From Minisyncoccia bacterium (GTDB taxonomy: Bacteria; Patescibacteriota; Minisyncoccia; Phycocordibacterales; UBA918), in NCBI GenBank assembly GCA_046293175.1, contig JBKBPM010000001.1:4484-68483 (forward strand): DNA of 64,000 bases, given 5' to 3'. The notes under the pieces were generated by a model that worked only from the letters and a program-made list of their open reading frames with translations, was not told the DNA's origin and searched no databases. The position numbers were made by a program, and so were the translations under genes. Below are positions 30,159-55,889 of the stretch, piece after piece (position 1 is the stretch's first letter; each line of letters opens with the position of its first letter).

Positions 30159-31601
30159 ATGGCAAAACTGATTGTGGTGACCGGTGGGGCAGGGTTTGTA
30201 GGCTCACACCTCTGTGAGCGTTTGGTACATGATGGTCACCGGGTAATTTCCCTTGATAACTATTTCACCGGTAGTACGGCAAATCATGTAGAAGGGGTCG
30301 AGTACCGTACCGGTCACACCAAAGACATCGCTTCTCTTGTACCGGAAACACCAGATATTATTTTCCACCTCGGCGAATATGCTCGAACGGAGAAGAGTTT
30401 TGAAGATATTGAAATTGTCTTTGATCTCAACAAGACCGGCACCTTTGCGGTCCTTGAGTATGCCAGACGAACCAAGGCGAAGCTCATCTACGCCGGATCG
30501 TCGACTAAGTTTGCCGATGGCGGTAGCGGTCGCAATCAAAGCCCGTACGCCTGGAGTAAGGCGACTAACACGGAACTGGTAGAAAATTATGCAGAGTGGT
30601 TTGGTCTCAATTACGCCATCACGTATTTCTACAATGTGTATGGTCCACGCGAGATGAGTGGGGCGTATGGTACCCTCATTAAAATCTTTAGTGACCTCTA
30701 CAAGAGCGGGCAGCCATTGACCGTCACGGCACCCGGTACCCAGACCCGCAACTTTACCCATGTCGAAGATATCGTGAATGGTCTTGTGCTCGTCGGTGAA
30801 AAGGGTCAAGGGGATGGTTACGGTATCGGCGCAGACGAGATGTACGGTGTACTAGAGGTAGCCAACATGTTTGGTGGTGAGATAATCATGCTGCCTGAGC
30901 GCAAGGGTAATCGGCTCCAAGGTGGTGTCGATAATGCACAAGTAAAGGCGCTTGGCTGGCAGCAAAAGCATCGCTTGCCAGACTGGATTGAAGCCGTGAA
31001 GAAAGAAGTCGGGGCGGTAGTGCCACAAGAACAGCGCATCTTGGTTTTTTCGACTACCTTCTACCCACACGCCGGTCCAGCCGAGCATGCGCTCTGCGAT
31101 CTGATGCGCGCCTTACCACACGTGCAGTTTGATGTGGTCACCACAAAGTTCTCCAAAGACACGATGGGGGATGCCTGCGATATTCCAAATGTCACCCTCT
31201 ACCGGGTTGGGGTCGGGCGGCCACTAGACAAGTACCTCCTCCCGCTCGCGGGGGCAAGGATAGCGAGCCGTTTACGCCGCCAGCACTCGTATATGTTTAA
31301 GTGGTCACTGTTTGCGAGTTACGGTGCACTCGCATCCCTCTTATCCTTTGGGCCACATATCCCGCACCTCATTACGCTTGCTGATCAGAAGCTCGGAAAT
31401 ATTCCCTGGTTTACTCGTGTGGTACTAAGGCATGTGCTTGGCACTGCAGACCAGGTCTACGCTATGGATACCTATGAAGCGAAGAGTGCGGTCTCGCTTG
31501 CGAAGCGTACCACCCTTGTCCGCTCGATTGGTCAAGGTGATGCCTTCGCAAACCAGCTCCGCGTCGCCTATGGTAACTATCTTCGTGCGCGGATAAAGTA
31601 A
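30159..31601 (+). CDS. Fusion: UDP-glucuronate decarboxylase (UDP-xylose synthase)-like SDR with a GT4 N-terminal-domain-only module
   Basis: LIVVTGGAGFVGSHL, DNYFTG, YAWSK, FYNVYGPRE (UXS-like) over aa 1-310; then ILVFSTTFYPHAGPAEHAL...FDVVTTKF paralogous to N-terminus of next gene. Confidence 0.65.
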   Translation: MAKLIVVTGGAGFVGSHLCERLVHDGHRVISLDNYFTGSTANHVEGVEYRTGHTKDIASLVPETPDIIFHLGEYARTEKSFEDIEIVFDLNKTGTFAVLEYARRTKAKLIYAGSSTKFADGGSGRNQSPYAWSKATNTELVENYAEWFGLNYAITYFYNVYGPREMSGAYGTLIKIFSDLYKSGQPLTVTAPGTQTRNFTHVEDIVNGLVLVGEKGQGDGYGIGADEMYGVLEVANMFGGEIIMLPERKGNRLQGGVDNAQVKALGWQQKHRLPDWIEAVKKEVGAVVPQEQRILVFSTTFYPHAGPAEHALCDLMRALPHVQFDVVTTKFSKDTMGDACDIPNVTLYRVGVGRPLDKYLLPLAGARIASRLRRQHSYMFKWSLFASYGALASLLSFGPHIPHLITLADQKLGNIPWFTRVVLRHVLGTADQVYAMDTYEAKSAVSLAKRTTLVRSIGQGDAFANQLRVAYGNYLRARIK

Positions 31602-31603
31602 TT

Positions 31604-32812
31604 ATGAAAAGGAAAATTCTTATCTTTTCGCTTGGATACTACCCAAAGCACATCGGAGGCGCTGAGGTCGCCATCAAAGAAATTACCGACCGACTCTCAC
31701 CAGAGGAATACGAATTTCATGTGCTCTGTAATCGGTACGATAGTACCTTGCCAAAGGAAGAACACATTGGGAACGTGATGGTGCATCGCATTGGTCTCAC
31801 AAAGAAAAATCCGACCATGGGAGATTTGCGGAAGCTTCCACTCCATCTCAACAAAATCATCTACCAATTTTCGGCTTACTATACCGCGAAGCGTCTCCAC
31901 AAGCATTATCACTTTGATGCGATTTGGGCGATGATGGCACATAGTTGTGGAGTGCCAGCGGGGATGTTCAAAAAACGGTTCCCGGGGGTACCGTATGTGC
32001 TGACGCTCCAAGAAGGCGATCCACCAGAGTACATCGAGCAAAAAATGAAAATATTTGGCAAGCTCTTCCCGGAGGGATTTTCTCGGGCTGATGTCATTCA
32101 ATCTATTTCGACCTTTCTCCAGGGCTGGGCACTCCATATGGGCTTTCGTGGTAAGCAAGTGATTATCCCAAATGCGGTTGATACGAAGAAGTTTATGGTG
32201 GAGCTTTCAGCTGAACGACGACAAGAACTACGACAAGAATTAGGTCTCGCTGAAAACGATATCGTTCTCGTCACCACTTCACGCCTGGTGCATAAAAACG
32301 CGGTAGATGACGTGATCAAAGCGATGGCACTTTTGCCAGCTGAGGTGAAGTTTATTGTCTTTGGCATTGGGCCAGACGAAGACAAACTCAAGTCCTTGAT
32401 TGCTGACCTCAAGCTTGGTGATCGGGTTTCGCTCCGCGGTCAGATTGGTCACGATGTGATGCCAAGCTACCTCAAGGCCTGCGATATCTTTATTCGACCG
32501 TCACGCAGTGAGGGGATGGGGAACTCATTTGTAGAAGCCATGGCGGCTGAGCTACCGGTGATTGCAACTCAAGAGGGTGGTATTGCCGATTTTCTATTTG
32601 ACCGAAACCTCAATCCGGATAAAGAGACGACCGGCTTTGCCGTCCGCAAAGATAATCCCGAAGATATTGCGACTGCTGTGCGTGAGATTATGGCCAACCC
32701 GGAATTTGTTGCCGACGTGGTGGCGACCGCCAAAGCCATGGCCATTCGTGATTATGATTGGGATATTATAGCCAAGCGGATGCATGATGAAGTTTTCCAA
32801 CCATTGTGGTAG
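31604..32812 (+). CDS. GT4 glycosyltransferase
   Basis: ILIFSLGYYPKHIGGAEVAIKEI N-domain; C-domain FIRPSRSEGMGNSFVEAMAAELPVIATQEGGIADF. Confidence 0.8.
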   Translation: MKRKILIFSLGYYPKHIGGAEVAIKEITDRLSPEEYEFHVLCNRYDSTLPKEEHIGNVMVHRIGLTKKNPTMGDLRKLPLHLNKIIYQFSAYYTAKRLHKHYHFDAIWAMMAHSCGVPAGMFKKRFPGVPYVLTLQEGDPPEYIEQKMKIFGKLFPEGFSRADVIQSISTFLQGWALHMGFRGKQVIIPNAVDTKKFMVELSAERRQELRQELGLAENDIVLVTTSRLVHKNAVDDVIKAMALLPAEVKFIVFGIGPDEDKLKSLIADLKLGDRVSLRGQIGHDVMPSYLKACDIFIRPSRSEGMGNSFVEAMAAELPVIATQEGGIADFLFDRNLNPDKETTGFAVRKDNPEDIATAVREIMANPEFVADVVATAKAMAIRDYDWDIIAKRMHDEVFQPLW

Positions 32813-33071
32813 GTGAGTTCGTCCAAAAATCCTTCAGACTTTGTTGCGCTACACTCAGAAACACTCATCGTTAGAAAGTCTGGGAGAATTTCGCAAGAGG
32901 TTGCCAGCTATTTTGAAAAAAGCGACAACCTGTACAGCTTCTGTAAGAAGTGTCTATATACGCTTCATACTTCCTCACTCGCGCTTCGCGTCTATGGAGC
33001 TTCTGAGACCATACTCTTTAGATTTCTGAGGGATTTTTGGCAGGCGTTAATCGTGATATAGTAGAATTCTT

Positions 33072-34199
33072 ATGAAGATTCTATTGGCGGCCGGACTATA
33101 TCCACCAGATATTGGTGGGCCGGCCCGCTATGCTGAGATGATAGCGACGAGACTACCAGCAGAAGGAATGGCGGTTACGGTGGTGCCGTATCGAGAGGTG
33201 CGGAGTGTTCCAAAAATCTTTCGGCATCTCGCCTATACCTGGCGACTGTGGCGTGCCAGTCGGGGCGTATCTGTAGTCTACGCGCTTGATCCAATCAGTG
33301 TTGGGGTGCCAGCAGCAATCGTGTCCTTCCTCCGCGGGCTACCACTGGTGGTCCGACTTGGTGGCGACTACGCGTGGGAGCAAGGAGTCCAGCGTTTTGG
33401 TGTGACTAAGACGCTTGATGCCTATACAAAAGACCCGCATCAGGTCAGATTGCCCGTGCGGATACTAGCCGGGATACAAGCACAGGTGGTGAGGCGGGCT
33501 AAAGCGGTAGTGGTCCCAAGCCAGTACCTCAAAGGGGTTGTGGCGACCTGGGGTGTTGCGCCCTCGCGACTACATGTCATCTACAGTGCGCATACGGTTG
33601 AGCCACTCAAAGACAGCCGCAATGATCTGCGAGCCCAATTAGGTTTTGCCGATCAAACTATCGTGAGCATTAGTCGCCTCACACCATGGAAAGGCATGAG
33701 TGCGCTCCTTGATATGATGGTGGAGCGAAAAGCACGCGGTGACGCAACCAAACTCGTCATTGGTGGAGATGGGCCTGAGCGGGCACCGCTTGAAGCAAAA
33801 ATAAAAACCCTGGGACTTGAGTCGTCTGTGCGGATGGTTGGGGCATTGTCGTTTACTGACGTCTTTCGATATGTGACTGCTGCGGATGTGTTTGTGCTTA
33901 ATACCGCGTACGAAGGACTATCACATCATCTCATTGAAGCACTTGCGCTTGGGACACCGGTCGTGACCACACCGGTTGGCGGGAATCCCGAATTGATCAC
34001 TGATGGGGTGGAGGGACTCTTGGTAGGGGTAAATGACGTGTCGGCCCTTGATACAGCGATTGAAAAAATCCTCACTGATAGTGCCTTGCGAGACAGGCTC
34101 GTTGCCGCCGGTCAAAAGAAGGCAGCCCAGTTTGCGGCGGCAGATGCGATTATGCCTATCAAACAACTTTTGGAGCGTATAATCAGTACTAAGGCATAA
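33072..34199 (+). CDS. GT4 glycosyltransferase
   Basis: ILLAAGLYPPDIGGPARYA; C-domain VLNTAYEGLSHHLIEALALGTPVVTTPVGGNPELI. Confidence 0.8.
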   Translation: MKILLAAGLYPPDIGGPARYAEMIATRLPAEGMAVTVVPYREVRSVPKIFRHLAYTWRLWRASRGVSVVYALDPISVGVPAAIVSFLRGLPLVVRLGGDYAWEQGVQRFGVTKTLDAYTKDPHQVRLPVRILAGIQAQVVRRAKAVVVPSQYLKGVVATWGVAPSRLHVIYSAHTVEPLKDSRNDLRAQLGFADQTIVSISRLTPWKGMSALLDMMVERKARGDATKLVIGGDGPERAPLEAKIKTLGLESSVRMVGALSFTDVFRYVTAADVFVLNTAYEGLSHHLIEALALGTPVVTTPVGGNPELITDGVEGLLVGVNDVSALDTAIEKILTDSALRDRLVAAGQKKAAQFAAADAIMPIKQLLERIISTKA

Positions 34200-34207
34200 C
34201 CTCTTAT

Positions 34208-35353
34208 ATGCATGTAGTCTCTCTCGGCCACGATACAAAGATATTTGACTCGACCTCGCGGCCGTACGGGAGGCAAGTGGCCTATGCCAAAAAAGCCGGG
34301 CAGCTCTCGATGTTGATTCCGACCCATACATCCTATCCCACGGTGACGACAGAGGGTTTTGTGGTTGAGGCAGTGGCCGCCCGTCTCGCACCGGTATGCT
34401 TCATAAAGCTCCTCGTCAGGACGCTACAAGTGGTCTCTCATGCCAAAAAGAATGAGAAGGTGGTCCTCACCGTTCAAAGCCCGTTTGAGCTTGGATTGAT
34501 TGGACTTATTGTTTCAAGGTGGGGTCGTGTACCACTGGAGGTTCAGGTTCATGGTGATTTTTACAGTCGGGAGTATTGGCGTCTCGAATCGCGCGGTAAC
34601 CGCATCCGCTATCAGCTTGGGTTGTTTGTGCTGCGCAGAGCCAATCGGGTGCGAGTAGTAGGGGAGCGGATCCGAACGTCACTCGTTAGTCGCAAAGTGG
34701 CGCGAGAGAAGATTACTGTCTTGCCAATTCAGACGGCACTCACTTCATTTTTGGAAGCTTCACCCCGACCACTCTGGCCAGACACCAATCGACTCACGAT
34801 TATTTCGGTCGCCCGCTTCTCACGTGAGAAAAATCTTTCCATGTTGCTACAGGCTTTTAAGTCTGTTAATCAGGTACATTCTGATACACAGTTGGTGCTC
34901 GTTGGTGAAGGCGGAGAAGAGAAAAAACTCCGGGCAGAGATTGCCGCTCTTTGGCCGAATCATGATGCTCCAGTACTTATATACCCGTGGCAGTCAGATG
35001 TGGCGGCCGTTATGAAAGCGGCAGATATCTTTGTCCTCACCTCTGACTACGAAGGGTATGCGATGGTGCTTGGTGAAGCTATGGCGGCGGGTCTACCGAT
35101 TGTGACGACAGACGTCGGATGTGTCGGTGAACTTTGTCTCCCCGATGTGCATGCACTGGTGGTACCACCGCGTGATGAAGCCTCATTGGCTGCTGCACTC
35201 ACCACCTTGGCGACTGATACTGATCTGCGTACACGTATAGCAGCAGCTGGGATGGTGACGGTAAGGTCGATGGAACAAAGTGACGAGGTATACACCAGTC
35301 AGATTGTCGCTGGTTGGAGTAGCCTTGTGAAGTTGGAAAGAAAAGGACCCTGA
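34208..35353 (+). CDS. GT4 glycosyltransferase
   Basis: VLTSDYEGYAMVLGEAMAAGLPIVTTDVGCVGEL C-domain. Confidence 0.75.
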   Translation: MHVVSLGHDTKIFDSTSRPYGRQVAYAKKAGQLSMLIPTHTSYPTVTTEGFVVEAVAARLAPVCFIKLLVRTLQVVSHAKKNEKVVLTVQSPFELGLIGLIVSRWGRVPLEVQVHGDFYSREYWRLESRGNRIRYQLGLFVLRRANRVRVVGERIRTSLVSRKVAREKITVLPIQTALTSFLEASPRPLWPDTNRLTIISVARFSREKNLSMLLQAFKSVNQVHSDTQLVLVGEGGEEKKLRAEIAALWPNHDAPVLIYPWQSDVAAVMKAADIFVLTSDYEGYAMVLGEAMAAGLPIVTTDVGCVGELCLPDVHALVVPPRDEASLAAALTTLATDTDLRTRIAAAGMVTVRSMEQSDEVYTSQIVAGWSSLVKLERKGP

Positions 35354-35431
35354 CGGGACGAAACCCGGCAGGGGACTTTTTGTTGTGATGTCTATATAAT
35401 AGCAATATCTGTTGTGTTGTTAAGATTCAAC

Positions 35432-36481
35432 ATGAAAAAGAAACTCCTCATCATCACGCAGGTTGTTGATACCAAGCATCCAATCTTGGGCTTTTTTCAT
35501 GGTTGGATTGAGGAATTTGCAAAGCAGTGTGAGCAGGTTCACGTGATTGCTCTACAAGTCGGAATACACAATCTTCCGAGTAATGTGACTGTACACTCCC
35601 TTGGTAAAGAAGCGGGCGAGAGTCGTCTTAAATATCTGTGGCGATTTTATCGAACAATTTATACACTCCGGCATGAGTACGACGCGGTGTTTGTGCATAT
35701 GAATCAGGTGTACGTGATTTTGGGTGGACTCCTCTGGCGACTTTGGGGCAAGCAAATTGGTCTTTGGTATGCGCATGGCGCGGTTTCACTTTCGCTGCGA
35801 GTGGCGACGTGGCTCACCCATATTGTTTTCACCTCCACCCCACAGGGCTTTCGTATAAAATCCCCTAAGGTGGTAGTGACCGGGCAGGGGATTGATATGA
35901 GCCGCTTTCGGTATGTCCCGCGTACAGAGTTTTCAATGTTGCGCCTTTTGGTTGTCGGACGGATTGCCGAATCAAAGGGCATCAAGACGCTCCTTGAAGC
36001 GTGTCACCGGCTTAAAGAATCAGGTATACCATTTTTGTTTACGATTGTCGGAGCGGCGACAACCGAGACGGAACGGCAGTATGAAGCTACGCTCCACGAG
36101 TACTGCAAAAACAACGGACTTGAGTCGCAGGTAATTTGGCATGGCGGTGTAGCTCAGACAGAACTACCAGCTCTCCTTGCCGCCACCGATATTTTTATTC
36201 ACGACGGTGCCACTAACAGTCTTGATAAGGTACTGGTCGAGGCGGTGGCTTGTGGGGTGCCAGTGATTTCCTCAAATCCTTCGTACCGCTACATCATGGG
36301 GGAGAACGAATGGCCCATCTTTTTTCCGCCGCGTGATAGTGTCTCTCTCGCTACAAAAATCACTGAGCTTGCGAACCGATCCCTGTTTGACAAGAACGAG
36401 TTTACACGAGCTACTGCCGCAAAAGTGCAACAGGAGCATAGTCTTTCAAATTTGATTGCAAAGATTTTGGATAGTTATTAA
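35432..36481 (+). CDS. GT4 glycosyltransferase (start at MKKKLLII)
   Basis: FIHDGATNSLDKVLVEAVACGVPVISSNPSYRYIMG C-domain. Confidence 0.75.
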   Translation: MKKKLLIITQVVDTKHPILGFFHGWIEEFAKQCEQVHVIALQVGIHNLPSNVTVHSLGKEAGESRLKYLWRFYRTIYTLRHEYDAVFVHMNQVYVILGGLLWRLWGKQIGLWYAHGAVSLSLRVATWLTHIVFTSTPQGFRIKSPKVVVTGQGIDMSRFRYVPRTEFSMLRLLVVGRIAESKGIKTLLEACHRLKESGIPFLFTIVGAATTETERQYEATLHEYCKNNGLESQVIWHGGVAQTELPALLAATDIFIHDGATNSLDKVLVEAVACGVPVISSNPSYRYIMGENEWPIFFPPRDSVSLATKITELANRSLFDKNEFTRATAAKVQQEHSLSNLIAKILDSY

Positions 36482-36533
36482 TAGACTTTGATTTCGTTGA
36501 TTATACAGATTTATTCATTGTGGAATTTATGTA

Positions 36534-36542
36534 GGGGGGGGG
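36534..36542. repeat. G9 homopolymeric tract about 50 bp upstream of secreted-protein gene (candidate slipped-strand phase-variation site)
   Basis: atgtagggggggggtagaatagg; longest G/C homopolymer seen in the window, in a promoter-proximal position. Confidence 0.8.
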
Positions 36543-39814: not shown

Positions 39815-39834
39815 GGCATTATGCTACTATAATG

Positions 39835-42358: not shown

Positions 42359-42362
42359 CATT

Positions 42363-43514: not shown

Positions 43515-43515
43515 T

Positions 43516-45148: not shown

Positions 45149-45155
45149 TCTCTGT

Positions 45156-50179: not shown

Positions 50180-50219
50180 CGCATCTCTTGTTTTCAAAAC
50201 ACAGTATACTAGTGACAGT

Positions 50220-51509
50220 ATGGAAGACGGTCAATATATCAAAGACGCTCAACGGTCACTTGATTCGATTCTTCGTAATGGTCGCCAGAAAAACCAAACG
50301 GCAGCAATACCAGAAGTTTCAGTGAGCGAAGCCCGTCAATCGCCGGTAGCGGAACTCACTTCAACCCGTACTAAGACTCGGGTGTTGTTTATTACTACTG
50401 ATACCAGCATGCTCAATCAAGCCACCAAGTCGCTTGACGGCTTCACGGCTATCAGAGACCTCTTTCATGAGGTGCATATAATGGTATTGCGAACTGGTAT
50501 CAAGCCAAAAAATCCCGTACTGCGTATTGATAACAATACCTGGCTCTATACGGTGACAGCCAAATATGCCTGGCAGTTACCGTTTTTTGGCTGGTCAATG
50601 TTGGCCAAAGAGCTCACCTTTGCTGAAGGTTTTAGACCAGATATTATTGTGGCGCGTGAAGTAGGGGTGAGTGCCTTTTGCGCGTATGGAGCGGGTACCT
50701 ATTATGGCCGTTCTATACAACTGCATATTCCAGAACGTCACCGACAGGCCGCCAAGTGGCTAGAGCGCAAATTTGAGGCTTGGCTCATCCGACTCTTTCC
50801 AAGTATTCGTGTTACGACCGAAGAGCTTGCAAAGTCATACCAGGCAGCACTTGGAGAAGATTATGATGTTGCTATCTTGCCGCGGTACCGCGGGTATATC
50901 AATGATTTTACGGGTAAGCAGGGAACATACCTTCGTACTAAATACCCGCAATTTAGTTTCATCGTATTGTATGTAGGTGACCTGATACCAACATCAACTG
51001 CTTTTAGTGCCATTGATGCGGTGCGGGGTATTTTGCGCAACCCACGAGTTGGTTTTTTGATGGTGGGAAATGGAACCGGAGTTATGGAGTGCGAACGCCG
51101 AGCGGAACTCTTGGGTATTAAAGATCAGGTAGTGATTGAACGTCGAGCTGATGACATTGCCGCCTACATGAGCAGCGCTGATGTGCTTCTGGTGACTGAT
51201 GTTGACGCTACTGCCGATGAGGTGGCATTGTACGGAGCAGCGGCTGGTACTCCTACCGTCATGACGAAGACGGCCCTGCGTGAAGATATCTTCGTCGATG
51301 GTGAATCTGCCTACCTGGTATCTGATGCCCGCTCAAACCGTATTGGTGAGATTTTAGTACGCTTATTAAATAATAATACCGATCGACTTCTCATGCGCGA
51401 TCGCAGTAGGCAAGCCGTGGTGAGTCGTCTCTCGACTAGTCAAAGCGACTACGAACGAGCCTTTCGGGCCAGTATTGAGGAGGCGCTTTTATACGAAGTC
51501 TCATCATAG
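50220..51509 (+). CDS. GT4-like glycosyltransferase (start at MEDGQY)
   Basis: C-terminal GT1-type domain FLMVGNGTGVMECERRAELLGI...LLVTDVDATADEVALYGAAAGTPTVMTK. Confidence 0.6.
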   Translation: MEDGQYIKDAQRSLDSILRNGRQKNQTAAIPEVSVSEARQSPVAELTSTRTKTRVLFITTDTSMLNQATKSLDGFTAIRDLFHEVHIMVLRTGIKPKNPVLRIDNNTWLYTVTAKYAWQLPFFGWSMLAKELTFAEGFRPDIIVAREVGVSAFCAYGAGTYYGRSIQLHIPERHRQAAKWLERKFEAWLIRLFPSIRVTTEELAKSYQAALGEDYDVAILPRYRGYINDFTGKQGTYLRTKYPQFSFIVLYVGDLIPTSTAFSAIDAVRGILRNPRVGFLMVGNGTGVMECERRAELLGIKDQVVIERRADDIAAYMSSADVLLVTDVDATADEVALYGAAAGTPTVMTKTALREDIFVDGESAYLVSDARSNRIGEILVRLLNNNTDRLLMRDRSRQAVVSRLSTSQSDYERAFRASIEEALLYEVSS

Positions 51510-51559
51510 CAGTACCTGTTTCTGTTTGACGGCATGGTACACTTTTACTACAGATTTTT

Positions 51560-52387
51560 ATGAAAATGCGACATGGCCCAGCGTTTATTGGTATCGGTGC
51601 CTCACATGCCGGACTGACACAAGTCACTAAATGGCTTAGTGAACATGAAGCAGTTACTGATACTATAGTGGCAGGAAATTTTTTTAATACCGAAGCCTTT
51701 ACAAAAAAAGGTCTTGCTTGGTATGAGAACCGCATCGGTTGTGGTCAAGAGAACAAGGGAAAGTTGTGTGGTGATGTCACTGCTGGCTATTTGGTAGATA
51801 AAGATGTACCGAAACGCATTGCGACCACATATGGTGATGCTAAACTTTTTTTGATTGTCAGGCATCCTCTCAAACGGGCACTCCAGGCGTACCTTACAAA
51901 TCAATCTATTGATAAGTCAGCCGGTCATTTATCAGCTGCTGCATATTTGGCGAAAGAAACAGCCATTCAAACAGAGAGCTACTACGCTGATCACTTGGCG
52001 TATTACTACGAGTATTATGCACCGGTAAATCTTCATATTATTGTGTACGAAGATTTAGTAGCCGATCCAGTCAAGACTATGCAGGCACTCTATACGTACC
52101 TGGAGATTGATGCTGGGGTAATTCCAAAAAGCCTTAAACATCTTGCGCCTCCACCGGAGCCACCAAAAAACCCAGGTCTCATCAAACGTACGCGCATGCG
52201 CATCCATTCGTTGTATAAGCGACTCCGCGCACGTCCAGTCGGGCCACTGTTTCCGCCAGAGCCAGATATAGACAGTCTGCTTTCACCAGAAGAAAAGCAG
52301 CTTTTTGTGGCGAGTCTGCGACCAGCGACCGATCGGCTGTCGCATATAGTAGGGAGGGATATGCTTTCTTTCTGGGACCTCTCCTAG
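51560..52387 (+). CDS. Sulfotransferase-family protein (tentative)
   Basis: 5'-PSB-like PAFIGIGASHAGLTQVTKWL and 3'-PB-like LFLIVRHPLKRALQAY. Confidence 0.5.
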   Translation: MKMRHGPAFIGIGASHAGLTQVTKWLSEHEAVTDTIVAGNFFNTEAFTKKGLAWYENRIGCGQENKGKLCGDVTAGYLVDKDVPKRIATTYGDAKLFLIVRHPLKRALQAYLTNQSIDKSAGHLSAAAYLAKETAIQTESYYADHLAYYYEYYAPVNLHIIVYEDLVADPVKTMQALYTYLEIDAGVIPKSLKHLAPPPEPPKNPGLIKRTRMRIHSLYKRLRARPVGPLFPPEPDIDSLLSPEEKQLFVASLRPATDRLSHIVGRDMLSFWDLS

Positions 52388-52624
52388 ATTTCACCAACTA
52401 ACCCCATCTTCTTTGTTGTCATCGTCAAAGAAAAAGTCATTGTATATCTAATACGCCTCCTTTTTCTTTTCCTCGACGCCGCGAATCTGCGGTCATTTGC
52501 TGAAATCTAGAACTGGAATTTGTTATTAATGAGAAATTTGTGACTACTGACCGTAGAAAGACATTAGGAATAGGTGTTCGTCTAGAGATGGTCGGTTTTT
52601 TGCCTGTGGTATAGTAGTAGCCAT

Positions 52625-54844
52625 ATGAAAGATATTTTGCAAGGTATTATTTATGTTGGTTTGTTTGCGGTACCATTTTTAACCCTATACGTCGCAAACG
52701 AAAACTTTTTTCCATACATTACCGGTAAGAATTTCTGGTTCCGTATCATCGTCGAAATTGTTTTAGCCGCTTACGTTATTCTCGCACTCCTCGATACCAC
52801 TTTCCGGCCACGCTTTTCTTGGCTTTTGGTAACCTTCAGTGCTCTGCTTGGCGTGATGCTTATTGCGACACTGCAGGCTGAACATGTGACTACAGCGCTC
52901 TGGAGTAATTTTGAGCGTATGGATGGCTATGTCACTCTTGTACACGTCTTCTTATACTTCTTGGTATTGGCTAGTATGTTCAAGAGTCGAGCAATTTGGA
53001 CCTACTTCCTCAACACTACCGTCGGTGTGGCGGCACTGGTAGCGCTGAATGGCGTGGCTCAGCTTTCCGGTGGTACCACGCGTGTTGATAGTACACTTGG
53101 AAACGCTGCCTACATGGCCGTGTATATGCTCTTCCATATCTTTATTGCAGCGTTCCTCTTTGCTCGCACGAAGGTGGTTCCATACCGCGTCATTTATGGC
53201 TTGTTGATTGTGCTCTTTGTGTTTGTGCTCTTGCAAACCGGTACTCGAGGTACGGCTATTGGTCTTGCGACTGGATCACTTGCGATGGTGGCGTATATGG
53301 TGCTTTTTGCTACCAAGAATCCGCAGATTCGGCGCTACGCGGTGATTGCTACAGTGGCGCTTGTTGTGGTGTTCTCTGGCTTCTTTGCCGTTCGTGATTC
53401 AGCCTATATCCAGAGTAAGCCAGCCTTAGCTCGTATTGCGAACATTGATCTTGGTAACGACCTTCGTGTCCGTTCAATTATTTGGGGTATGTCTATTGAG
53501 GGAGTAAAAGAACGACCACTCTTTGGTTGGGGGAATGGTAACTTCAACTACGTCTTTAATGAACAGTACGACCCTCGTCTCTATGGTCAGGAACAGTGGT
53601 TTGATCGGGTGCACAATATTGTATTTGATTGGCTGATTGCTGGCGGTGTGGTTGGCTTGTTAGCGTACGGCAGTATCTTTGCGGCCATATTCTATTACCT
53701 TATTATCGTCGCTTGGCGAAAGGAGAGTGCAATTCCGGTAATGGAACGTGGTATTTTGGTTGGTTTGACTGTGGGGTACATGACGCACAACCTGGTGGTG
53801 TTTGACAATATCATTAGTTACATTTTCTTTGCGGTTCTCCTGGCTCTGGTGCACAGTTACTACAGTGAGGAATGGGGTGGTTTCATGAAGCGATCATTAC
53901 CAAAGCCAATTGTGACGCAGATTGTGGCACCTATCATCGTCGTGCTCGCTGTTGTTTTTGTCTACGTCGTCAACGTACCAGGAATGCGTGCCGCATCAGG
54001 TATTATTGATGCGTTTCGTACCCAAGATATTGCACAGCGTCTCTCCATCTTTGAAGAGATTTTGGCACTTAACTCGTTTGCCCAGCAAGAAATTGTTGAG
54101 CAGCTTGCCCAGCAGGCGATGGGTATTGCCCAGAATCCTGGAGCTATTGACCCTGCCCTACGCGATAAGTTTTTGGCTACTGCCGAATCAGAATTGCAAA
54201 AGATGGTGCAAAAGAAGCCCGGGGACGCTCGACTTCATGTCTTCCTCTCGAGTTACTATCGTGCGACTGGTGATCAGGCCAAGGCACAGGCTGAACTTGC
54301 TATCGCTCGTTCATTGTCACCAAAGAAGCAAGCGATTATTCTCCAGCAGGGTGCAGTAGAAATTGCCCTTGGCAACAACGAAGCGGCGCGTGATTTCTTT
54401 GCGGAGGCATTCCGACTGGATGAAACCAACGATGAGGCGCGCGAGTACTATTACGCCTCACTCTTGTTTACGGGTGAATTAGAACAGGCAGATGGTCTTT
54501 TGGCTTCAACCACACCTGAATTCAAAGATCGTATTGCCAATAGTGATTTTGTCTTCTCGGCACTTAATCAAGCAAAGCAGTATGAAACACTCGCCGGTCT
54601 CTACGAACAACGTGTGCTTGCTACACCTGATAATGCGCAGCAGTGGGCAAGTCTGGCCTTCCTCTACTACCAGCTTGGTCAAGAAGCTTCAACCACTAAT
54701 AAAGATCGTCAGCGAATTATGACAGATAAGGCAATTGAGACATTGGCTCGAGGAGCTAAAGCTGTACCAACCTTTGCACCGACAGCAGAGTGTGTATCAA
54801 CAAATCTCAAGGCCGGACGAGCACCTGAGGTGGGTTGTCAGTAG
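52625..54844 (+). CDS. O-antigen ligase (Wzy_C / WaaL-like) domain protein with C-terminal TPR repeats
   Basis: About 12 TM, LLQTGTRGTAIGLATGSLAMV loop motif, then TPR-like helical repeats. Confidence 0.7.
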   Translation: MKDILQGIIYVGLFAVPFLTLYVANENFFPYITGKNFWFRIIVEIVLAAYVILALLDTTFRPRFSWLLVTFSALLGVMLIATLQAEHVTTALWSNFERMDGYVTLVHVFLYFLVLASMFKSRAIWTYFLNTTVGVAALVALNGVAQLSGGTTRVDSTLGNAAYMAVYMLFHIFIAAFLFARTKVVPYRVIYGLLIVLFVFVLLQTGTRGTAIGLATGSLAMVAYMVLFATKNPQIRRYAVIATVALVVVFSGFFAVRDSAYIQSKPALARIANIDLGNDLRVRSIIWGMSIEGVKERPLFGWGNGNFNYVFNEQYDPRLYGQEQWFDRVHNIVFDWLIAGGVVGLLAYGSIFAAIFYYLIIVAWRKESAIPVMERGILVGLTVGYMTHNLVVFDNIISYIFFAVLLALVHSYYSEEWGGFMKRSLPKPIVTQIVAPIIVVLAVVFVYVVNVPGMRAASGIIDAFRTQDIAQRLSIFEEILALNSFAQQEIVEQLAQQAMGIAQNPGAIDPALRDKFLATAESELQKMVQKKPGDARLHVFLSSYYRATGDQAKAQAELAIARSLSPKKQAIILQQGAVEIALGNNEAARDFFAEAFRLDETNDEAREYYYASLLFTGELEQADGLLASTTPEFKDRIANSDFVFSALNQAKQYETLAGLYEQRVLATPDNAQQWASLAFLYYQLGQEASTTNKDRQRIMTDKAIETLARGAKAVPTFAPTAECVSTNLKAGRAPEVGCQ

Positions 54845-54856
54845 TAACTATTTCAT

Positions 54857-55889
54857 GGCTGATTTAGTGGTACTGGAGAAGGTCTCCCTCGCAGAGCATA
54901 CAACCCTCAAAGTTGGTGGTACCGCGCGCTATTTCATTACCGCTACGAGTGAAGCAGAGGTGGCAGAAGCAGTGCAGTTTGCACATGAGCGGCAATTACC
55001 GCTTTTTGTGCTTGGAGCAGGTTCAAATGTGCTTGCAAGTGATGGTGAGTATGCTGGTGTGGTACTTAATATTCGTCTACTGGGTAAAGAAGCAATTGTT
55101 GACGAAAGTACTAACTCGGTGCTTTTTACCGTTGGTGCTGGTGAAGATCTCGACACGATTATTGCTCATACTGTTCTATCTGGTTGGTGGGGGATAGAAA
55201 ACCTCTCGGCTATCCCGAGCTCAATTGGTGCTGTTCCAGTGCAAAATGTGGGAGCCTACGGCGTCGAGGCGAGTCAGGTGATTGTGTCAGTGCGGGTGTA
55301 TAACGGGGAGACAAAACAGATTGAAACGTGGATCGCTAGTCAGTGTGCATTTGCGTATCGTGACTCAATCTTCAAACATGAAAGAGGGCGGCAAGCGATA
55401 GTACTGGCAGTTACGTTCCGATTATCGGTAACACCCACACCTCATTTAAGCTACAAAGATCTAGTCGAGTATTTTGGTGATACAACACCTACTCAGGCTG
55501 CGATTCGTGCAGCGATTATTGCTATTCGGGGAAAGAAATTTCCCGATTGGCGAGTGGTTGGTACCGCTGGTTCATTCTTCAAAAATCCTATCATTCCATC
55601 GACCCAGGCTGCATTACTCAAAGAGCAGTACCCAGAGCTTCCCGTTTATGATACCGATACTGCTGATCAAAAAAAGGTATCATTAGGATACGTGCTTGAT
55701 AAAATTTGTCACCTCAAAGGATACTGCGATGGACCAGTTTGTCTCTATCAAGAGCAGGCTCTTGTGCTTACTGTGGTTCCAGGTACTGGTGCTGATGTAG
55801 TCACTGCTTTCGCAAAAAAAATTGCCGAAAAAGTTTTTGCTACAACAAATATTTCAATTGAGTGGGAAGTAGTTTTACTTTCGAACTGA
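54857..55889 (+). CDS. murB: UDP-N-acetylenolpyruvoylglucosamine reductase MurB (start at MADLVV)
   Basis: TTLKVGGTARYF, LGAGSNVL FAD-binding motifs. Confidence 0.8.

What the first reader, a model, noticed from the sequence alone, without database searches (positions are those of the whole stretch)
30159..55889. About 26-kb surface-glycan locus predicting a heavily methylated, sulfated, uronic-acid/xylose-containing glycan, possibly a protein O-glycosylation system
The locus encodes a UGDH-like enzyme (UDP-GlcA), UXS-like enzyme (UDP-Xyl) and UDP-GlcA 4-epimerase (UDP-GalA), a coherent nucleotide-sugar pathway. It also has 6-7 GT4, a GT2 and a GT47-like transferase. Seven methyltransferases (three FkbM-type, four class I, one with a Zn ribbon) and a sulfotransferase are present, along with a Wzx flippase and a WaaL/O-antigen-ligase-like enzyme fused to TPR repeats. 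A CPR-like monoderm is unlikely to make LPS, so the ligase-TPR protein is more plausibly an O-oligosaccharyltransferase decorating S-layer, pilin or other surface proteins. The methylation and sulfation density is unusual.
Basis: partly seen in the sequence, partly recalled or inferred. Interest (0 to 1): 0.6.

Follow-up and report, generated by a model that had tools for sequence, protein, structure and literature searches.

The report
Paceibacteria surface-glycan locus with conserved ligase
This stretch of a tiny, uncultured candidate-phyla-radiation (CPR) bacterium encodes a real sugar-coat assembly line rich in methyl- and sulfate-adding enzymes, which ends in a highly conserved membrane enzyme that probably attaches the finished sugar chain to a still unidentified surface molecule.

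Summary
Pfam confirms six full GT4 glycosyltransferases and one half GT4 domain. It also confirms a GT2, a GT47-like enzyme, three FkbM and four class I methyltransferases, a sulfotransferase-fold protein, a Wzx flippase and a 739-aa Wzy_C+TPR protein, in a Paceibacteria (Patescibacteria) genome.

- The 'UXS' has Ser-Thr-Lys where UXS has Thr-Ser-Glu, so xylose is unsupported.
- The 'UGDH' is a 287-aa form without the UDP-binding domain.
- CofD/YvcK and MurB, which lie inside the interval, are not glycan-locus genes.
- A priming phosphoglycosyltransferase lies 28 kb upstream.

New findings:
- The Wzy_C+TPR protein is a core Paceibacteria gene, found in at least 551 species genomes at 34-98% identity.
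- It has a WaaL fold, an invariant Arg/Arg/His set and an outward-facing TPR domain, and it lies directly upstream of murB-secA.
- The left-end SDR fusion is also core (69-96% identity).
- Between these anchors lie semi-conserved GT4 genes and a swappable module. Relatives carry Wzx or an ABC exporter there, never both, plus methyltransferases, PAPS synthase or nonulosonic-acid genes.

Best reading: glycan is assembled on undecaprenyl phosphate, flipped, and transferred en bloc by a donor-agnostic ligase. A protein acceptor is plausible, by analogy with the S-layer enzyme WsfB, but unproven. A conserved lipid or wall acceptor is a serious rival.

The parts
1315..2718 (+). Candidate priming enzyme: polyprenyl-phosphate glycosyl-1-phosphate transferase (Bac_transf, 467 aa). 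It lies 28 kb upstream of the locus.
   Evidence: Pfam PF02397 E=9e-48. NCBIfam EPS_sugtrans 254 bits, below the 295 cut-off. Homologues lie next to the ligase in L069 and L071.
30159..31601 (+). Core gene: extended SDR (epimerase/dehydratase fold) fused to a GT4 N-terminal-like half domain.
   Evidence: Pfam Epimerase E=4e-41; Glyco_trans_4_4 weak at residues 327-458. Human UXS is the best solved match (E~1e-26), but TSE is replaced by STK. At least 120 full-length homologues at 69-96% identity.
31604..35353 (+). Three GT4 glycosyltransferases (31604-32812, 33072-34199, 34208-35353). They are semi-conserved backbone genes.
   Evidence: Pfam Glycos_transf_1 E=1e-34 to 1e-37. Orthologue-like matches at 33-52% identity in the same order in L082 and L084.
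35414..36481 (+). GT4 glycosyltransferase, the first gene of the variable module.
   Evidence: Pfam E=8e-24. Recurs with FkbM1 in L013 and L018; the fuller series with MT11_1 and GT47 is seen only in L013.
36594..37286 (+). Secreted 230-aa protein with a signal peptide and weak DNRLRE/CBM96-like similarity, in a low-GC segment.
   Evidence: NCBIfam DNRLRE 23.9 bits, below cut-off. N-terminal hydrophobic segment. GC 0.405 at 36-38 kb. Larger relatives next to the ligase in L021, L023 and L034; the 716-aa CBM96 protein of L017 was not matched by this 230-aa protein.
37410..38829 (+). FkbM methyltransferase (37410-38198) and class I methyltransferase (38191-38829).
   Evidence: Pfam Methyltransf_21 E=3e-9; Methyltransf_11 E=2e-9.
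38867..39814 (+). Nucleotide-sugar 4-epimerase, most likely a UDP-glucuronate 4-epimerase.
   Evidence: Best solved match is 5u4q at E=9e-97. MoeE5 and B. cereus UGAepi match at 1e-41. The catalytic region reads STSS, with no dehydratase or decarboxylase acid. Homologues are named UDP-glucuronate 4-epimerase by JGI.
39693..40490 (+). Class I methyltransferase. The true start is probably near 39837.
   Evidence: Pfam Methyltransf_11 E=7e-9.
40494..41522 (+). Exostosin/GT47-like glycosyltransferase.
   Evidence: Pfam PF03016 E=2e-10, 40.8 bits against a 33.4 cut-off, C-terminal half only. Only weak EXT2/EXTL3 matches in the PDB.
41519..45148 (+). FkbM methyltransferase (41519-42358), GT4 (42363-43514), class I methyltransferase (43516-44364) and FkbM methyltransferase (44294-45148).
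   Evidence: Pfam. In sister genome L002 the 43540-45881 segment is replaced by a divergent copy of the class I methyltransferase plus a different 220-aa methyltransferase in place of the FkbM gene.
45129..46061 (+). GT2 glycosyltransferase with one C-terminal hydrophobic segment.
   Evidence: Pfam Glycos_transf_2 E=5e-35. Hydropathy scan.
46023..47288 (-). Wzx-type flippase (421 aa, polytopic).
   Evidence: Pfam Polysacc_synt E=7e-15. Nine or more hydrophobic segments. A Wzx lies upstream of the ligase in 29 of 49 related loci.
47362..48240 (+). Class I methyltransferase with an N-terminal CxxC...CxxC zinc-ribbon-like motif.
   Evidence: Pfam Methyltransf_23 E=3e-13. Motif read in the translation.
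48285..49148 (+). Short UGDH-like NAD-dependent dehydrogenase (287 aa). The catalytic Cys/Lys/Asn motifs are present and the C-terminal UDP-binding domain is absent.
   Evidence: Pfam N-terminal and central domains only. The alignment to 3vtf ends near chain residue 310 of its 444. The short form is a family: 145 representatives at E<=1e-30, some fused to GT4, GT2, SDR or Ddl.
49169..50179 (+). CofD/YvcK-family protein (UDP-GlcNAc-binding family). Semi-conserved neighbour, absent at this position in L002.
   Evidence: Pfam CofD E=3e-75. NCBIfam YvcK 274.7 bits, above the 196 cut-off. Synteny.
50220..51509 (+). GT4 glycosyltransferase with an N-terminal extension. Semi-conserved, and often directly upstream of the ligase.
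   Evidence: Pfam. Present in 11 related loci; 38-40% identical in L082 and L084.
51560..52387 (+). Sulfotransferase-fold protein, closest to carbohydrate (heparan-sulfate 3-O) sulfotransferases, with a non-canonical PAPS loop.
   Evidence: Pfam Sulfotransfer_3 41.2 bits against 27. Family profile against 3bd9, 1t8t and 1zrh gives E=2e-25 to 8e-21. GASHAGLT replaces the RKGGT loop; VRHPLKRA is kept.
52625..54844 (+). Core gene: WaaL-fold glycan ligase (13 predicted TM helices, Wzy_C domain) with an extracytoplasmic C-terminal TPR domain of about 270 aa.
   Evidence: Pfam Wzy_C 64.8 bits. AF2 pLDDT 86. Foldseek top hit for the TM part is WaaL 7tpg_B, E=1e-6, TM-score 0.64. R208, R283, H330, C723 and C738 are invariant in 56 sequences. 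At least 551 species genomes carry it.
54855..55889 (+). MurB (UDP-N-acetylenolpyruvoylglucosamine reductase). It is the conserved right flank, not a glycan-locus enzyme.
   Evidence: Pfam FAD_binding_4 and MurB_C. It follows the ligase in 54 of 80 loci, with a gap of 20 bp or less in 34 of 52.

Best explanation
The locus is the glycan part of a conserved cell-envelope neighbourhood of Paceibacteria. The gene order is murD-murC ... PBP/LDT - T4CP - [glycan genes] - ligase - murB - secA.

Proposed pathway:
1. A Bac_transf enzyme (probably the one at 1315-2718) primes undecaprenyl phosphate with a sugar-1-phosphate.
2. Up to nine cytoplasmic glycosyltransferases (six GT4, GT2, GT47-like, perhaps the half-GT4 fusion) extend it into one large oligosaccharide. 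This probably contains glucuronic and/or galacturonic acid.
3. Seven soluble SAM methyltransferases, and possibly a sulfotransferase, decorate it on the cytoplasmic side.
4. Wzx flips it across the membrane.
5. The conserved 13-TM WaaL-fold enzyme transfers it en bloc from undecaprenyl diphosphate to an extracytoplasmic acceptor, which its outward-facing TPR domain recognises.

I take the acceptor to be most likely one or more conserved surface proteins, which would make this protein O-glycosylation of the WsfB/PglL type.

Shown: the domain content, the WaaL fold, the invariant catalytic-type residues, the synteny and the core-versus-variable structure. Inferred: the order of steps, the sugar identities, whether sulfation really occurs, and the acceptor.
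For: Domain content is established.

Evidence that the last enzyme is a ligase rather than a repeat-unit polymerase:
- It is present in at least 551 species-level genomes, and the best 80 loci are 34-88% identical. It diverges at the same rate as MurB (median 45% for both), whereas Wzx is at 30% and the GT/MT content changes from genome to genome.
- It is kept whether the neighbouring exporter is Wzx (29 of 49 loci) or a PglK/MsbA-like ABC half-transporter (6 loci). No locus has both.
- The locus holds no second polytopic protein and no Wzz.

Evidence on fold and active site:
- In the PDB only WaaL 7tpg matches the TM part significantly (E=1e-6, TM-score 0.64).
- The family profile hits 7tpg at E=8e-5.
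- R208, R283 and H330 are invariant. Their 75/47 spacing compares with 73/50 for E. coli WaaL R215/R288/H338 and 74/51 for PglL R224/R298/H349 (PMC3643930).

Evidence that the TPR domain faces outward:
- The positive-inside pattern fits all 13 helices.
- There is an invariant Cys pair, C723/C738.

Evidence for a protein acceptor:
- The S-layer O-oligosaccharyltransferase candidate WsfB of the Gram-positive P. alvei has the same Wzy_C plus C-terminal TPR layout (PMC2943079).
- P298-x-x-G301-x-G303 has the spacing of the PglL P313/G316/G318 motif that the cited paper reports as PglL-typical.

Evidence for decoration:
- All methyltransferases and the sulfotransferase lack signal peptides.
- Related loci carry PAPS synthase next to the ligase (12 of 80).
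- L013 has a parallel module with a canonical sulfotransferase.
Against: - No acceptor was identified. There is no pilin-type motif in the window and no S-layer gene was recognised.
- The PglL_A and Wzy_C_2 Pfam models do not match the ligase.
- TPR domains also serve polysaccharide machinery, as in BcsC, PgaA and PrsT, which are the weak NCBIfam hits.
- Conserved GT4 genes flank the ligase, as core-oligosaccharide genes flank waaL. This would fit a lipid-linked acceptor equally well.
- The priming enzyme is 28 kb away, and its link to the locus rests on co-location only.
- The UGDH-like protein lacks its UDP-binding domain.
- The sulfotransferase has a degenerate PAPS loop, and no PAPS synthase lies in the 64 kb.
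Confidence: 0.42

Rival explanations
1. A 'core plus O-antigen' logic in a monoderm. The conserved backbone genes (SDR-half-GT4 fusion, GT4_a, GT4_b, GT4_c, GT4_f) would build a conserved glycolipid or wall-linked core. The WaaL-fold enzyme would ligate the variable, Wzx- or ABC-exported glycan onto that core. The product would be a lipoglycan or secondary cell-wall glycopolymer, not a glycoprotein.
For: - The gene layout mirrors waa/rfb. Conserved GT4 genes and the ligase keep fixed positions, while a swappable module sits between them.
- The SDR fusion is 69-96% identical across the class.
- The only solved structure the ligase resembles is a true WaaL, which acts on a lipid-linked acceptor.
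- The neighbourhood is peptidoglycan biosynthesis (MurD, MurC, PBP/LDT, MurB). The ligase-murB gap is 20 bp or less in 34 of 52 loci.
Against: - No lipid-anchor synthase was identified. All NCBIfam GT4 matches are far below equivalog cut-offs.
- The large outward TPR domain has no counterpart in the matched WaaL structure 7tpg (413 aa), whose match covers only the TM part. A TPR is known for the protein-targeting WsfB.
- The conserved gene order continues into unrelated housekeeping genes (secA, obg, gatB). Adjacency to murB may therefore carry no functional meaning.
Confidence: 0.28
2. The Wzy_C+TPR protein is a Wzy-type polymerase. The locus would then make a polymerised, anionic, teichuronic-acid-like wall polysaccharide by a Wzx/Wzy pathway, attached to peptidoglycan by an enzyme encoded elsewhere.
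For: - Pfam Wzy_C also covers polymerases, and the locus has Wzx but no other Wzy candidate.
- The best sub-threshold NCBIfam names for the GT2, for GT4_a and (third-ranked) for the UGDH-like protein are TuaG, TuaC and TuaD of the B. subtilis teichuronic acid operon, whose TuaE is a Wzy_C protein by my recollection.
- Uronic-acid enzymes are present.
Against: - Polymerases co-vary with their repeat unit. This protein is conserved at housekeeping level across genomes whose GT sets share almost nothing.
- It persists in loci that use an ABC exporter and have no Wzx.
- No Wzz/PCP and no LCP ligase lie in the window.
- It carries the WaaL/PglL Arg/Arg/His set.
Confidence: 0.12
3. The interval is not one system. 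The conserved backbone and the 13.7-kb insert would be separate pathways that merely share a chromosomal hot spot. Several methyltransferases, the sulfotransferase-fold protein and the short dehydrogenase would act on non-glycan or different substrates.
For: - The insert (35.4-49.1 kb) has its own flippase and a low-GC segment.
- CofD and MurB inside the interval are unrelated to glycan assembly.
- The sulfotransferase has no canonical PAPS-loop Lys and no PAPS synthase nearby.
- The short UGDH-like family lacks the UDP-binding domain and is fused to diverse partners, including D-Ala-D-Ala ligase.
Against: - All genes but Wzx are co-oriented, with short or overlapping gaps.
- The same gene types recur next to the ligase in dozens of genomes.
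- The sister genome L002 keeps the order from FkbM2 to SecA.
- FkbM and class I methyltransferases are the most frequent family in these islands, which points to glycan decoration.
Confidence: 0.1

Closest known systems
WaaL O-antigen ligase (Cupriavidus metallidurans WaaL, PDB 7TPG; E. coli WaaL)
   Same: - Pfam Wzy_C domain.
- Same polytopic fold: the only significant PDB match, TM-score 0.64.
- Invariant Arg/Arg/His with the same spacing as WaaL R215/R288/H338.
- Works downstream of either a Wzx or an ABC exporter, and is much more conserved than the glycan genes it serves.
   Different: - 16% sequence identity.
- An extra 13th helix and a TPR domain of about 270 aa outside the membrane.
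- The host is a monoderm CPR bacterium with no sign of lipid A-core, so the acceptor must differ.
- It lies directly upstream of murB-secA rather than in a waa cluster.
WsfB/WsaB S-layer O-oligosaccharyltransferases and slg loci of Paenibacillus alvei and Geobacillus stearothermophilus
   Same: - Gram-positive-type envelope.
- Wzy_C enzyme with a C-terminal TPR (WsfB), or a separate TPR protein (WsaA), according to PMC2943079.
- The locus combines nucleotide-sugar genes, GTs, an O-methyltransferase and a priming Gal-1-P transferase.
   Different: - No S-layer gene was found near the locus.
- The slg cluster described there for G. stearothermophilus uses an ABC transporter and one methyl cap, whereas here there are a Wzx and seven methyltransferases.
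- This enzyme is a class-wide core gene in fixed synteny, whereas slg clusters have no preferred chromosomal site.
PglL/PilO/TfpO general O-glycosylation systems of Neisseria, Acinetobacter and Pseudomonas
   Same: - En bloc transfer from Und-PP after Wzx flipping.
- Wzy_C domain.
- The conserved R/R/H set and the P-x-x-G-x-G spacing.
- Relaxed donor specificity would explain conservation next to variable glycan genes.
   Different: - The PglL_A (PF15864) model does not match.
- No adjacent pilin or other acceptor gene.
- The host is a different phylum without an outer membrane.
Bacillus subtilis teichuronic acid (tua) operon
   Same: - A monoderm uronic-acid glycan locus with a priming transferase, Wzx-like TuaB, GT4 and GT2 enzymes, UGDH (TuaD) and a Wzy_C protein (TuaE).
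- The best sub-threshold NCBIfam names for the GT2 and for GT4_a are TuaG and TuaC, and TuaD is the third-ranked name for the UGDH-like protein.
   Different: - All scores are far below equivalog cut-offs (84-114 bits against 400-700).
- As I recall, tua has no methyltransferases, sulfotransferase or TPR.
- As I recall, TuaE is taken to be a polymerase, which the conservation pattern here argues against.

Membership tests
Wzy_C / WaaL-type glycan ligase superfamily | Pfam PF04932 match above the gathering score | tested here: met
   64.8 bits against 31.7, residues 194-348.
Wzy_C / WaaL-type glycan ligase superfamily | WaaL polytopic fold | tested here: met
   AF2 model of residues 1-470 (pLDDT 80, pTM 0.85). 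Foldseek top hit 7tpg_B, E=1.2e-6, TM-score 0.56/0.64; next hit FtsW at E=0.03.
Wzy_C / WaaL-type glycan ligase superfamily | Two Arg and one His at or near the outer face that are essential in E. coli WaaL (R215, R288, H338) | tested here: met
   R208, R283 and H330 are invariant in 56 sequences. Spacing is 75/47 against 73/50. The correspondence rests on spacing and on the profile match to 7tpg positions 181-350, not on a residue-level structural alignment.
Wzy_C / WaaL-type glycan ligase superfamily | The acceptor is lipid A-core | not testable with these tools
   No LPS genes were seen in the 64 kb. That Patescibacteria lack LPS is from general knowledge, not tested here.
PglL-type protein O-oligosaccharyltransferase | Match to the PglL_A model (PF15864), which separates PglL from WaaL (PMC3643930) | tested here: not met
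   Pfam scan at E<=0.01 lists only Wzy_C and TPR families.
PglL-type protein O-oligosaccharyltransferase | Gene adjacent to a pilin or other target glycoprotein | tested here: not met
   No class III (pilin) signal motif in any frame of the window. The neighbours are a sulfotransferase-fold gene and murB.
PglL-type protein O-oligosaccharyltransferase | Transfers Und-PP-glycan to Ser/Thr of proteins | not testable with these tools
   Needs biochemistry or glycoproteomics.
WsfB-type S-layer O-oligosaccharyltransferase | Wzy_C domain followed by a C-terminal TPR region in a monoderm | tested here: met
   Pfam Wzy_C plus TPR_19/TPR_14. TPR solenoid at residues 469-729 in the model. The architecture is described for WsfB in PMC2943079.
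WsfB-type S-layer O-oligosaccharyltransferase | Sequence relationship to WsfB, and an S-layer glycoprotein substrate | not tested
Wzx/Wzy-dependent glycan pathway | Wzx flippase | tested here: met
   Polysacc_synt E=7e-15, polytopic.
Wzx/Wzy-dependent glycan pathway | Priming polyprenyl-phosphate glycosylphosphotransferase | tested here: inconclusive
   Bac_transf E=9e-48 on the same contig, but 28 kb upstream and separated by housekeeping genes.
Wzx/Wzy-dependent glycan pathway | A dedicated Wzy polymerase and a Wzz/PCP co-polymerase | tested here: not met
   The locus has no polytopic protein other than Wzx and the ligase, and no Wzz domain.
UDP-xylose synthase (UXS) | Catalytic Thr-Ser-Glu plus Tyr-x-x-x-Lys of the decarboxylase | tested here: not met
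   Aligned to human UXS1, TSE corresponds to STK (Glu to Lys), and the following loop is 13 residues shorter. YxxxK is present.
UDP-glucose 6-dehydrogenase (UGDH) | Three-domain architecture including the C-terminal UDP-binding domain | tested here: not met
   Only PF03721 and PF00984 match. The protein ends 20 nt before the next gene. TIGR03026 gives 134 bits, below the 189.8 cut-off.
UDP-glucose 6-dehydrogenase (UGDH) | Catalytic Cys motif (GGxCxPKD) and the Lys/Asn helix motif | tested here: met
   GGHCFPKD and AELIKYAGNNFLALKV align with 3vtf.
UDP-glucuronate 4-epimerase | Extended SDR with Ser/Thr-Tyr-Lys and no dehydratase or decarboxylase acid, closest to characterised UDP-GlcA epimerases | tested here: inconclusive
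   The catalytic region reads STSSVYG and Y..K. MoeE5 and BcUGAepi match at E~1e-41, but a UDP-Glc 4-epimerase (4zrm) scores slightly better. The best hit, 5u4q, is labelled a dehydratase by its depositors. Homologues are named UDP-glucuronate 4-epimerase by JGI.
PAPS-dependent carbohydrate sulfotransferase | Sulfotransferase-fold match above the curated cut-off | tested here: met
   PF13469 41.2 bits against 27; PF00685 32.3 against 22. The family profile matches heparan-sulfate 3-O-sulfotransferases at E=2e-25.
PAPS-dependent carbohydrate sulfotransferase | 5'-phosphosulfate-binding loop with the conserved Lys, and the catalytic base | tested here: inconclusive
   The loop is GASHAGLT (His at the Lys position; Gly or Lys in relatives). 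The catalytic Glu position holds Asp in the window and its two closest relatives (L002, L003) and Glu in the other aligned relatives. The 3'-phosphate Arg is kept and the Ser is lost.
PAPS-dependent carbohydrate sulfotransferase | PAPS supply (ATP sulfurylase plus APS kinase) in the same genome | not testable with these tools
   None in the 64 kb by tblastn. It is present next to the ligase in 12 of 80 other Paceibacteria loci, none of which carries a homologue of this sulfotransferase.

The most novel reading that the evidence does not exclude
Paceibacteria as a class may possess an undescribed envelope-glycoconjugate system organised like LPS core plus O-antigen, but in a monoderm. Its fixed parts would be a class-specific TPR-bearing WaaL-fold ligase and a conserved SDR-half-GT4/GT4 backbone, embedded in the peptidoglycan gene neighbourhood. 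Into these plugs a rapidly exchanged module: Wzx or ABC exporter, methyltransferases, PAPS synthase with sulfotransferase, nonulosonic-acid genes. The product would be a strain-variable, heavily O-methylated coat. In this genome the GT47-like, heparan-type sulfotransferase-like, UGDH-like and uronate-epimerase genes suggest it may be sulfated and uronic-acid-rich, that is glycosaminoglycan-like. Such a coat could determine host attachment and phage susceptibility of these episymbionts.
Probability: 0.3. Interest if true: 0.75.

Novelty: new variant of a known kind. Interest (0 to 1): 0.55.

Why it matters
The cell surface of candidate-phyla-radiation bacteria is almost unknown. It must nevertheless mediate their attachment to host cells and their exposure to phages.

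This work gives a concrete, class-wide genetic handle:
- a conserved ligase gene directly upstream of murB;
- a defined hot spot immediately upstream of it where glycan genes are exchanged.

This makes several questions testable: what the acceptor is, whether glycan type tracks host range, and whether CPR bacteria make sulfated, methylated glycans. It also flags two enzyme families worth biochemical study, namely a UGDH-like dehydrogenase without a UDP-binding domain and a highly conserved SDR fused to half a GT4. Full-text searches found no paper treating O-antigen-ligase-family proteins in these bacteria.

Tried and rejected
- Foldseek of the full-length ligase model against the PDB was swamped by TPR proteins. 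I re-modelled residues 1-470 alone to see the membrane fold.
- A 14-sequence profile of the membrane part found nothing in PDB sequences, although the 56-sequence full-length profile had found WaaL.
- Literature searches for O-antigen ligase, sulfotransferase or glycosylation in Patescibacteria/CPR found nothing relevant. A search for PDB entry 5U4Q did not clarify its true activity.
- A pilin-motif scan of all six frames found no candidate acceptor.
- tblastn with a Paceibacteria PAPS synthase found no homologue in the window.
- NCBIfam gave no equivalog-level name for any GT4, the priming enzyme, Wzx, the sulfotransferase or the GT47-like protein.
- I first took the SDR-half-GT4 fusion to be a recombination remnant at the island edge and rejected that: it is a 69-96% conserved full-length family.
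- I considered that the whole 26 kb is one mobile island and rejected it: both ends and several internal genes are syntenic core genes.
- I considered LPS O-antigen and rejected it as a membership claim, because nothing in the window or lineage suggests lipid A.

Full report
**What is in the interval**

All genes but one lie on the plus strand, with short or overlapping gaps. In order they are:
- an extended SDR fused to a GT4 N-terminal-like half domain (30159-31601);
- four GT4 glycosyltransferases (31604, 33072, 34208, 35414);
- a small secreted protein (36594);
- an FkbM and a class I methyltransferase (37410, 38191);
- a second SDR (38867);
- a class I methyltransferase (39693);
- an exostosin/GT47-like protein (40494);
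- FkbM (41519), GT4 (42363), class I methyltransferase (43516), FkbM (44294) and GT2 (45129);
- a Wzx-type flippase on the minus strand (46023-47288);
- a class I methyltransferase with a CxxC...CxxC N-terminus (47362);
- a short UGDH-like dehydrogenase (48285);
- a CofD/YvcK-family protein (49169);
- a GT4 with an N-terminal extension (50220);
- a sulfotransferase-fold protein (51560);
- a 739-aa Wzy_C+TPR protein (52625-54844);
- MurB (54855-55889).

The Pfam E-values range from 1e-9 to 1e-75, and each named family call scores above its gathering cut-off, so this is not a chance pattern.

The organism is a Patescibacterium. Close homologues are deposited as Candidatus Paceibacteria/Parcubacteria, and the window carries a lone 16S rRNA gene. 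One protein is 100% identical to an NCBI protein on a 676-kb contig. A sister genome (L002, 88% identical ligase) keeps the order from 41.4 kb to the end of the window. The locus is therefore not an assembly artefact.

**Corrections to the nucleotide-sugar story**

The second SDR (38867) is a sound 4-epimerase candidate:
- Its catalytic region reads STSS...Y..K, without a dehydratase or decarboxylase acid.
- It matches the UDP-GlcA epimerases MoeE5 and BcUGAepi at about 1e-41.
- Its homologues are named UDP-glucuronate 4-epimerase by JGI.

The 'UXS-like' SDR (30159) is not a UXS:
- Its best solved relatives are human UXS1 structures, but only at about 1e-26.
- In the alignment the catalytic Thr-Ser-Glu is Ser-Thr-Lys, and the following loop is 13 residues shorter.
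- Xylose is therefore not supported.

The 'UGDH' is 287 aa:
- It has the NAD-binding and central domains and the catalytic GGxCxPKD motif.
- It ends about 20 nt before the next gene and lacks the whole UDP-binding domain.
- This short form is a real family: 145 cluster representatives at E<=1e-30, mostly 260-300 aa. Some are fused to GT4, GT2, SDR or even D-Ala-D-Ala ligase.
- That pattern argues for a sugar-pathway role, but it leaves the substrate open.

**The sulfotransferase**

- Pfam scores are above cut-off, but they cover only the C-terminal part of the models.
- A profile of eight family members matches heparan-sulfate 3-O-sulfotransferases at 2e-25 to 8e-21 and NDST at 1e-15, from the N-terminus on. 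This is a carbohydrate-type sulfotransferase fold.
- The PAPS 5'-phosphosulfate loop is atypical (GASHAGLT, His at the Lys position). The catalytic Glu position holds Asp in this genome. The 3'-phosphate Arg is kept and the Ser is lost.
- No PAPS synthase lies in the 64 kb.
- Sulfation is nevertheless a theme of the lineage. A bifunctional ATP sulfurylase/APS kinase sits just upstream of the ligase in 12 of 80 related loci.
- Locus L013 has a module parallel to this one: GT4 - FkbM - MT - canonical Sulfotransfer_1 with PKSGRTW - GT47-like - FkbM - Wzx - PAPS synthase - MT - ligase.

**The ligase is a core gene**

- The Wzy_C+TPR protein has more than 2000 full-length relatives. The best 120 are 51-98% identical.
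Nearly all of the best 80 records are titled as Patescibacteria lineages (Kaiser-, Campbell-, Taylor-, Nomurabacteria, Paceibacteria); a few carry only generic titles.
- I called ORFs in the 80 fetched loci and labelled them with the window's proteins. Downstream the order ligase - MurB - SecA - small holin-like gene - Obg - GatB is kept in most genomes. The ligase-murB gap is 20 bp or less in 34 of 52 cases.
- Upstream the content changes from genome to genome. Wzx is present in 29 of 49 loci with at least 9 kb of flank.
- A PglK/MsbA-like ABC half-transporter stands directly before the ligase in four of six further loci and one or two genes away in the other two. No locus has both exporters.
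- A Pfam census of 148 otherwise unlabelled upstream ORFs gives methyltransferases as the commonest family (16). Next come CMP-sugar cytidylyltransferases (8), NeuB (6), DegT aminotransferases (4) and TagF-like transferases (3).
- Median identity to the window is 45% for the ligase, 45% for MurB and 30% for Wzx.

**The left side is conserved too**

- The SDR-half-GT4 fusion is a 480-500-aa family, 69-96% identical in the 120 best hits. It is not a recombination remnant.
- Around it, a Kaiserbacteria genome (L082) and a 595-kb JGI contig (L084) share the order MurC (seen in L082) - TP_methylase - PBP/LDT - T4CP-like ATPase (84-86% identical over about 430 aligned residues) - SDR fusion (71%) - GT4_a (37-42%) - ... 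CofD (52-53%) - GT4_b (40-52%) - GT4_f (38-40%).
- The interval is therefore not one 26-kb island. It consists of a backbone (SDR fusion, GT4_a, GT4_b, GT4_c, CofD, GT4_f, ligase) and a module of about 13.7 kb (35.4-49.1 kb) inserted between GT4_c and CofD. The module contains GT4_d, the secreted protein, five of the seven methyltransferases, the epimerase, the GT47-like protein, GT4_e, GT2, Wzx, the zinc-ribbon methyltransferase and the short dehydrogenase.
- Even between this genome and its sister L002, one methyltransferase pair (43540-45881) has been exchanged and CofD is present or absent.
- This genome has seven methyltransferases in about 19 kb. Related loci average 0.8 labelled methyltransferases per 10 kb, with a maximum of four. 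Methylation here is at the high end of a lineage-wide habit.

**Structure of the ligase**

- AlphaFold2 with 56 sequences gives pLDDT 86.
- A full-length Foldseek search returned only TPR proteins, so I modelled residues 1-470 separately (pLDDT 80, pTM 0.85).
- The only significant PDB match for that part is the O-antigen ligase WaaL (7tpg_B, E=1.2e-6, TM-score 0.56/0.64). FtsW is a distant second. The family profile also hits 7tpg by sequence (E=8e-5).
- R208, R283 and H330 are invariant. Their spacing of 75/47 compares with 73/50 for the essential R215/R288/H338 of E. coli WaaL and 74/51 for R224/R298/H349 of PglL (PMC3643930).
- P298-x-x-G301-x-G303 has the spacing of PglL P313/G316/G318.
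- The charge distribution in the short loops fits a 13-helix topology with the N-terminus inside, the catalytic loop (258-331) outside and the C-terminal TPR solenoid (469-729) outside. This is inferred.
- An invariant Cys pair (C723, C738) at the end of the TPR domain fits an extracytoplasmic disulfide.
- The PglL_A and Wzy_C_2 Pfam models do not match.

**How it most likely works**

1. A Bac_transf priming enzyme is present on the contig (1315-2718, E=9e-48). Homologues lie next to the ligase in L069 and L071. It probably starts the chain on undecaprenyl phosphate.
2. Up to nine GTs extend the chain.
3. The methyltransferases and the sulfotransferase-fold protein have no signal peptides or membrane spans. 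They would act in the cytoplasm.
4. Wzx flips the product.
5. The locus holds no second polytopic protein and no Wzz. The product is therefore probably a single large oligosaccharide rather than a polymer.
6. The WaaL-fold enzyme transfers it en bloc.

The enzyme is conserved at housekeeping level and is retained with either exporter type. Both points argue that it reads the lipid carrier and a conserved acceptor, not the variable glycan. That is ligase behaviour, not polymerase behaviour.

**The acceptor is the open point**

A protein acceptor is favoured by the large outward TPR domain and by the precedent of WsfB. WsfB is the S-layer O-oligosaccharyltransferase candidate of the Gram-positive P. 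alvei, and it has the same Wzy_C plus C-terminal TPR layout (PMC2943079). No acceptor gene was found, however, and there is no pilin motif in the window.

The backbone-plus-module layout resembles waa core genes plus rfb. This keeps a conserved glycolipid or wall acceptor as a serious rival. I put the protein reading at about 0.4, the lipid or wall 'core' reading at about 0.3, and a polymerase role at about 0.1.

**Novelty**

The components belong to known kinds. The new elements are:
- a class-wide, TPR-bearing WaaL-fold ligase fixed directly upstream of murB;
- the exchangeable glycan module upstream of it;
- the SDR-half-GT4 and short UGDH-like families.

Searches of the held literature found nothing on them. 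I rate this a new variant of a known kind, of moderate to good interest.

Noticed in passing
window 30159-31601; P0394-P0513: The SDR fused to a GT4 N-terminal-like half domain is one of the most conserved proteins here. It is 69-96% identical over the full length in the best 120 hits, all 469-502 aa. Its catalytic region (Ser-Thr-Lys, short loop) fits no characterised SDR subfamily that I checked. Its function is unknown.
   Followed up: partly
window 48285-49148; P0121-P0270: There is a family of about 270-300-aa UGDH-like dehydrogenases that lack the UDP-binding domain but keep the catalytic Cys. In other genomes they are fused to GT4 (either end), GT2, an SDR epimerase/dehydratase or a D-Ala-D-Ala ligase.
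   Followed up: partly
window 22434-24143: A 569-aa ORF joins a shortened S-adenosylmethionine synthetase-like region (partial matches to all three MetK domains) to a TP_methylase (RsmI-like) domain. In relatives L082 and L084 the TP_methylase is a separate 226-230-aa protein. A SAM synthetase-like domain sits 8 kb from a locus with seven SAM methyltransferases.
   Followed up: partly
L013:7488-9164, L014:5978-7636, L051:8126-9952 and nine further loci: A bifunctional ATP sulfurylase/APS kinase (PAPS synthase) is encoded just upstream of the conserved ligase in 12 of 80 Paceibacteria loci. In L013 it occurs together with a canonical sulfotransferase. It is never in the same 10 kb as a homologue of the window's atypical sulfotransferase.
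   Followed up: partly
L050, L058, L059, L061, L064, L074 (for example L074:8194-9957): A PglK/MsbA-like ABC half-transporter of 587-605 aa lies within two genes upstream of the ligase (directly upstream in L050, L058, L059 and L074) in loci that have no Wzx. The two exporter types are mutually exclusive in this data set.
   Followed up: yes
window 36594-37286; L017:7724-9874; L021, L023, L034: A secreted DNRLRE/CBM96-like protein sits in a low-GC patch (GC 0.405) of the variable module. Much larger secreted relatives (644-991 aa) lie upstream of the ligase in L021, L023 and L034, directly so in L023, and L017 has a 716-aa CBM96 protein directly upstream that this protein did not match. They could be glycan-binding proteins or acceptor glycoproteins.
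   Followed up: no
window 27891-29786 and 15508-16092 (minus strand): A TrwB/VirD4-like coupling-protein ATPase is 84-86% identical over about 430 aligned residues across distant Paceibacteria. It carries a variable Pro/Ala/Thr/Lys-rich C-terminal tail of about 200 aa. A T4SS-pilin-like ORF lies 12 kb upstream.
   Followed up: no
window 26180-27718: A single 512-aa membrane-anchored protein combines an L,D-transpeptidase (YkuD) domain with a D,D-carboxypeptidase (Peptidase_S11) domain. The fusion is conserved in L082 and L084.
   Followed up: no
window 13777-15234, 16819-16901, 17391-17465: A 16S rRNA gene stands alone, with no 23S or 5S anywhere in the 64 kb. tRNA-Leu(CAG) lies downstream, and tRNA-Ile(GAT) lies on the opposite strand about 2 kb downstream.
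   Followed up: no
window 43540-45881 and 49169-50179 against L002: Compared with a sister genome that is 70-78% identical at the DNA level, one methyltransferase pair is replaced by a divergent copy of the class I enzyme plus a different 220-aa methyltransferase, and the CofD/YvcK gene is present only in the window. This shows very recent turnover inside the locus.
   Followed up: yes
Census of 148 ORFs upstream of the ligase in L004-L081 (alignment A4): Other Paceibacteria carry nonulosonic-acid genes (NeuB, CMP-sugar cytidylyltransferase), DegT aminotransferases and TagF-like CDP-glycerol glycerophosphotransferases at the same hot spot. L035 has AT3-SGNH O-acyltransferases there.
   Followed up: partly
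window 24463-26127: A 554-aa DUF285 (BspA-like repeat) protein lies between the MetK-like fusion and the PBP/LDT gene. It is a possible surface protein. It is not seen at this position in L082 or L084, which have a DUF4015 protein there.
   Followed up: no
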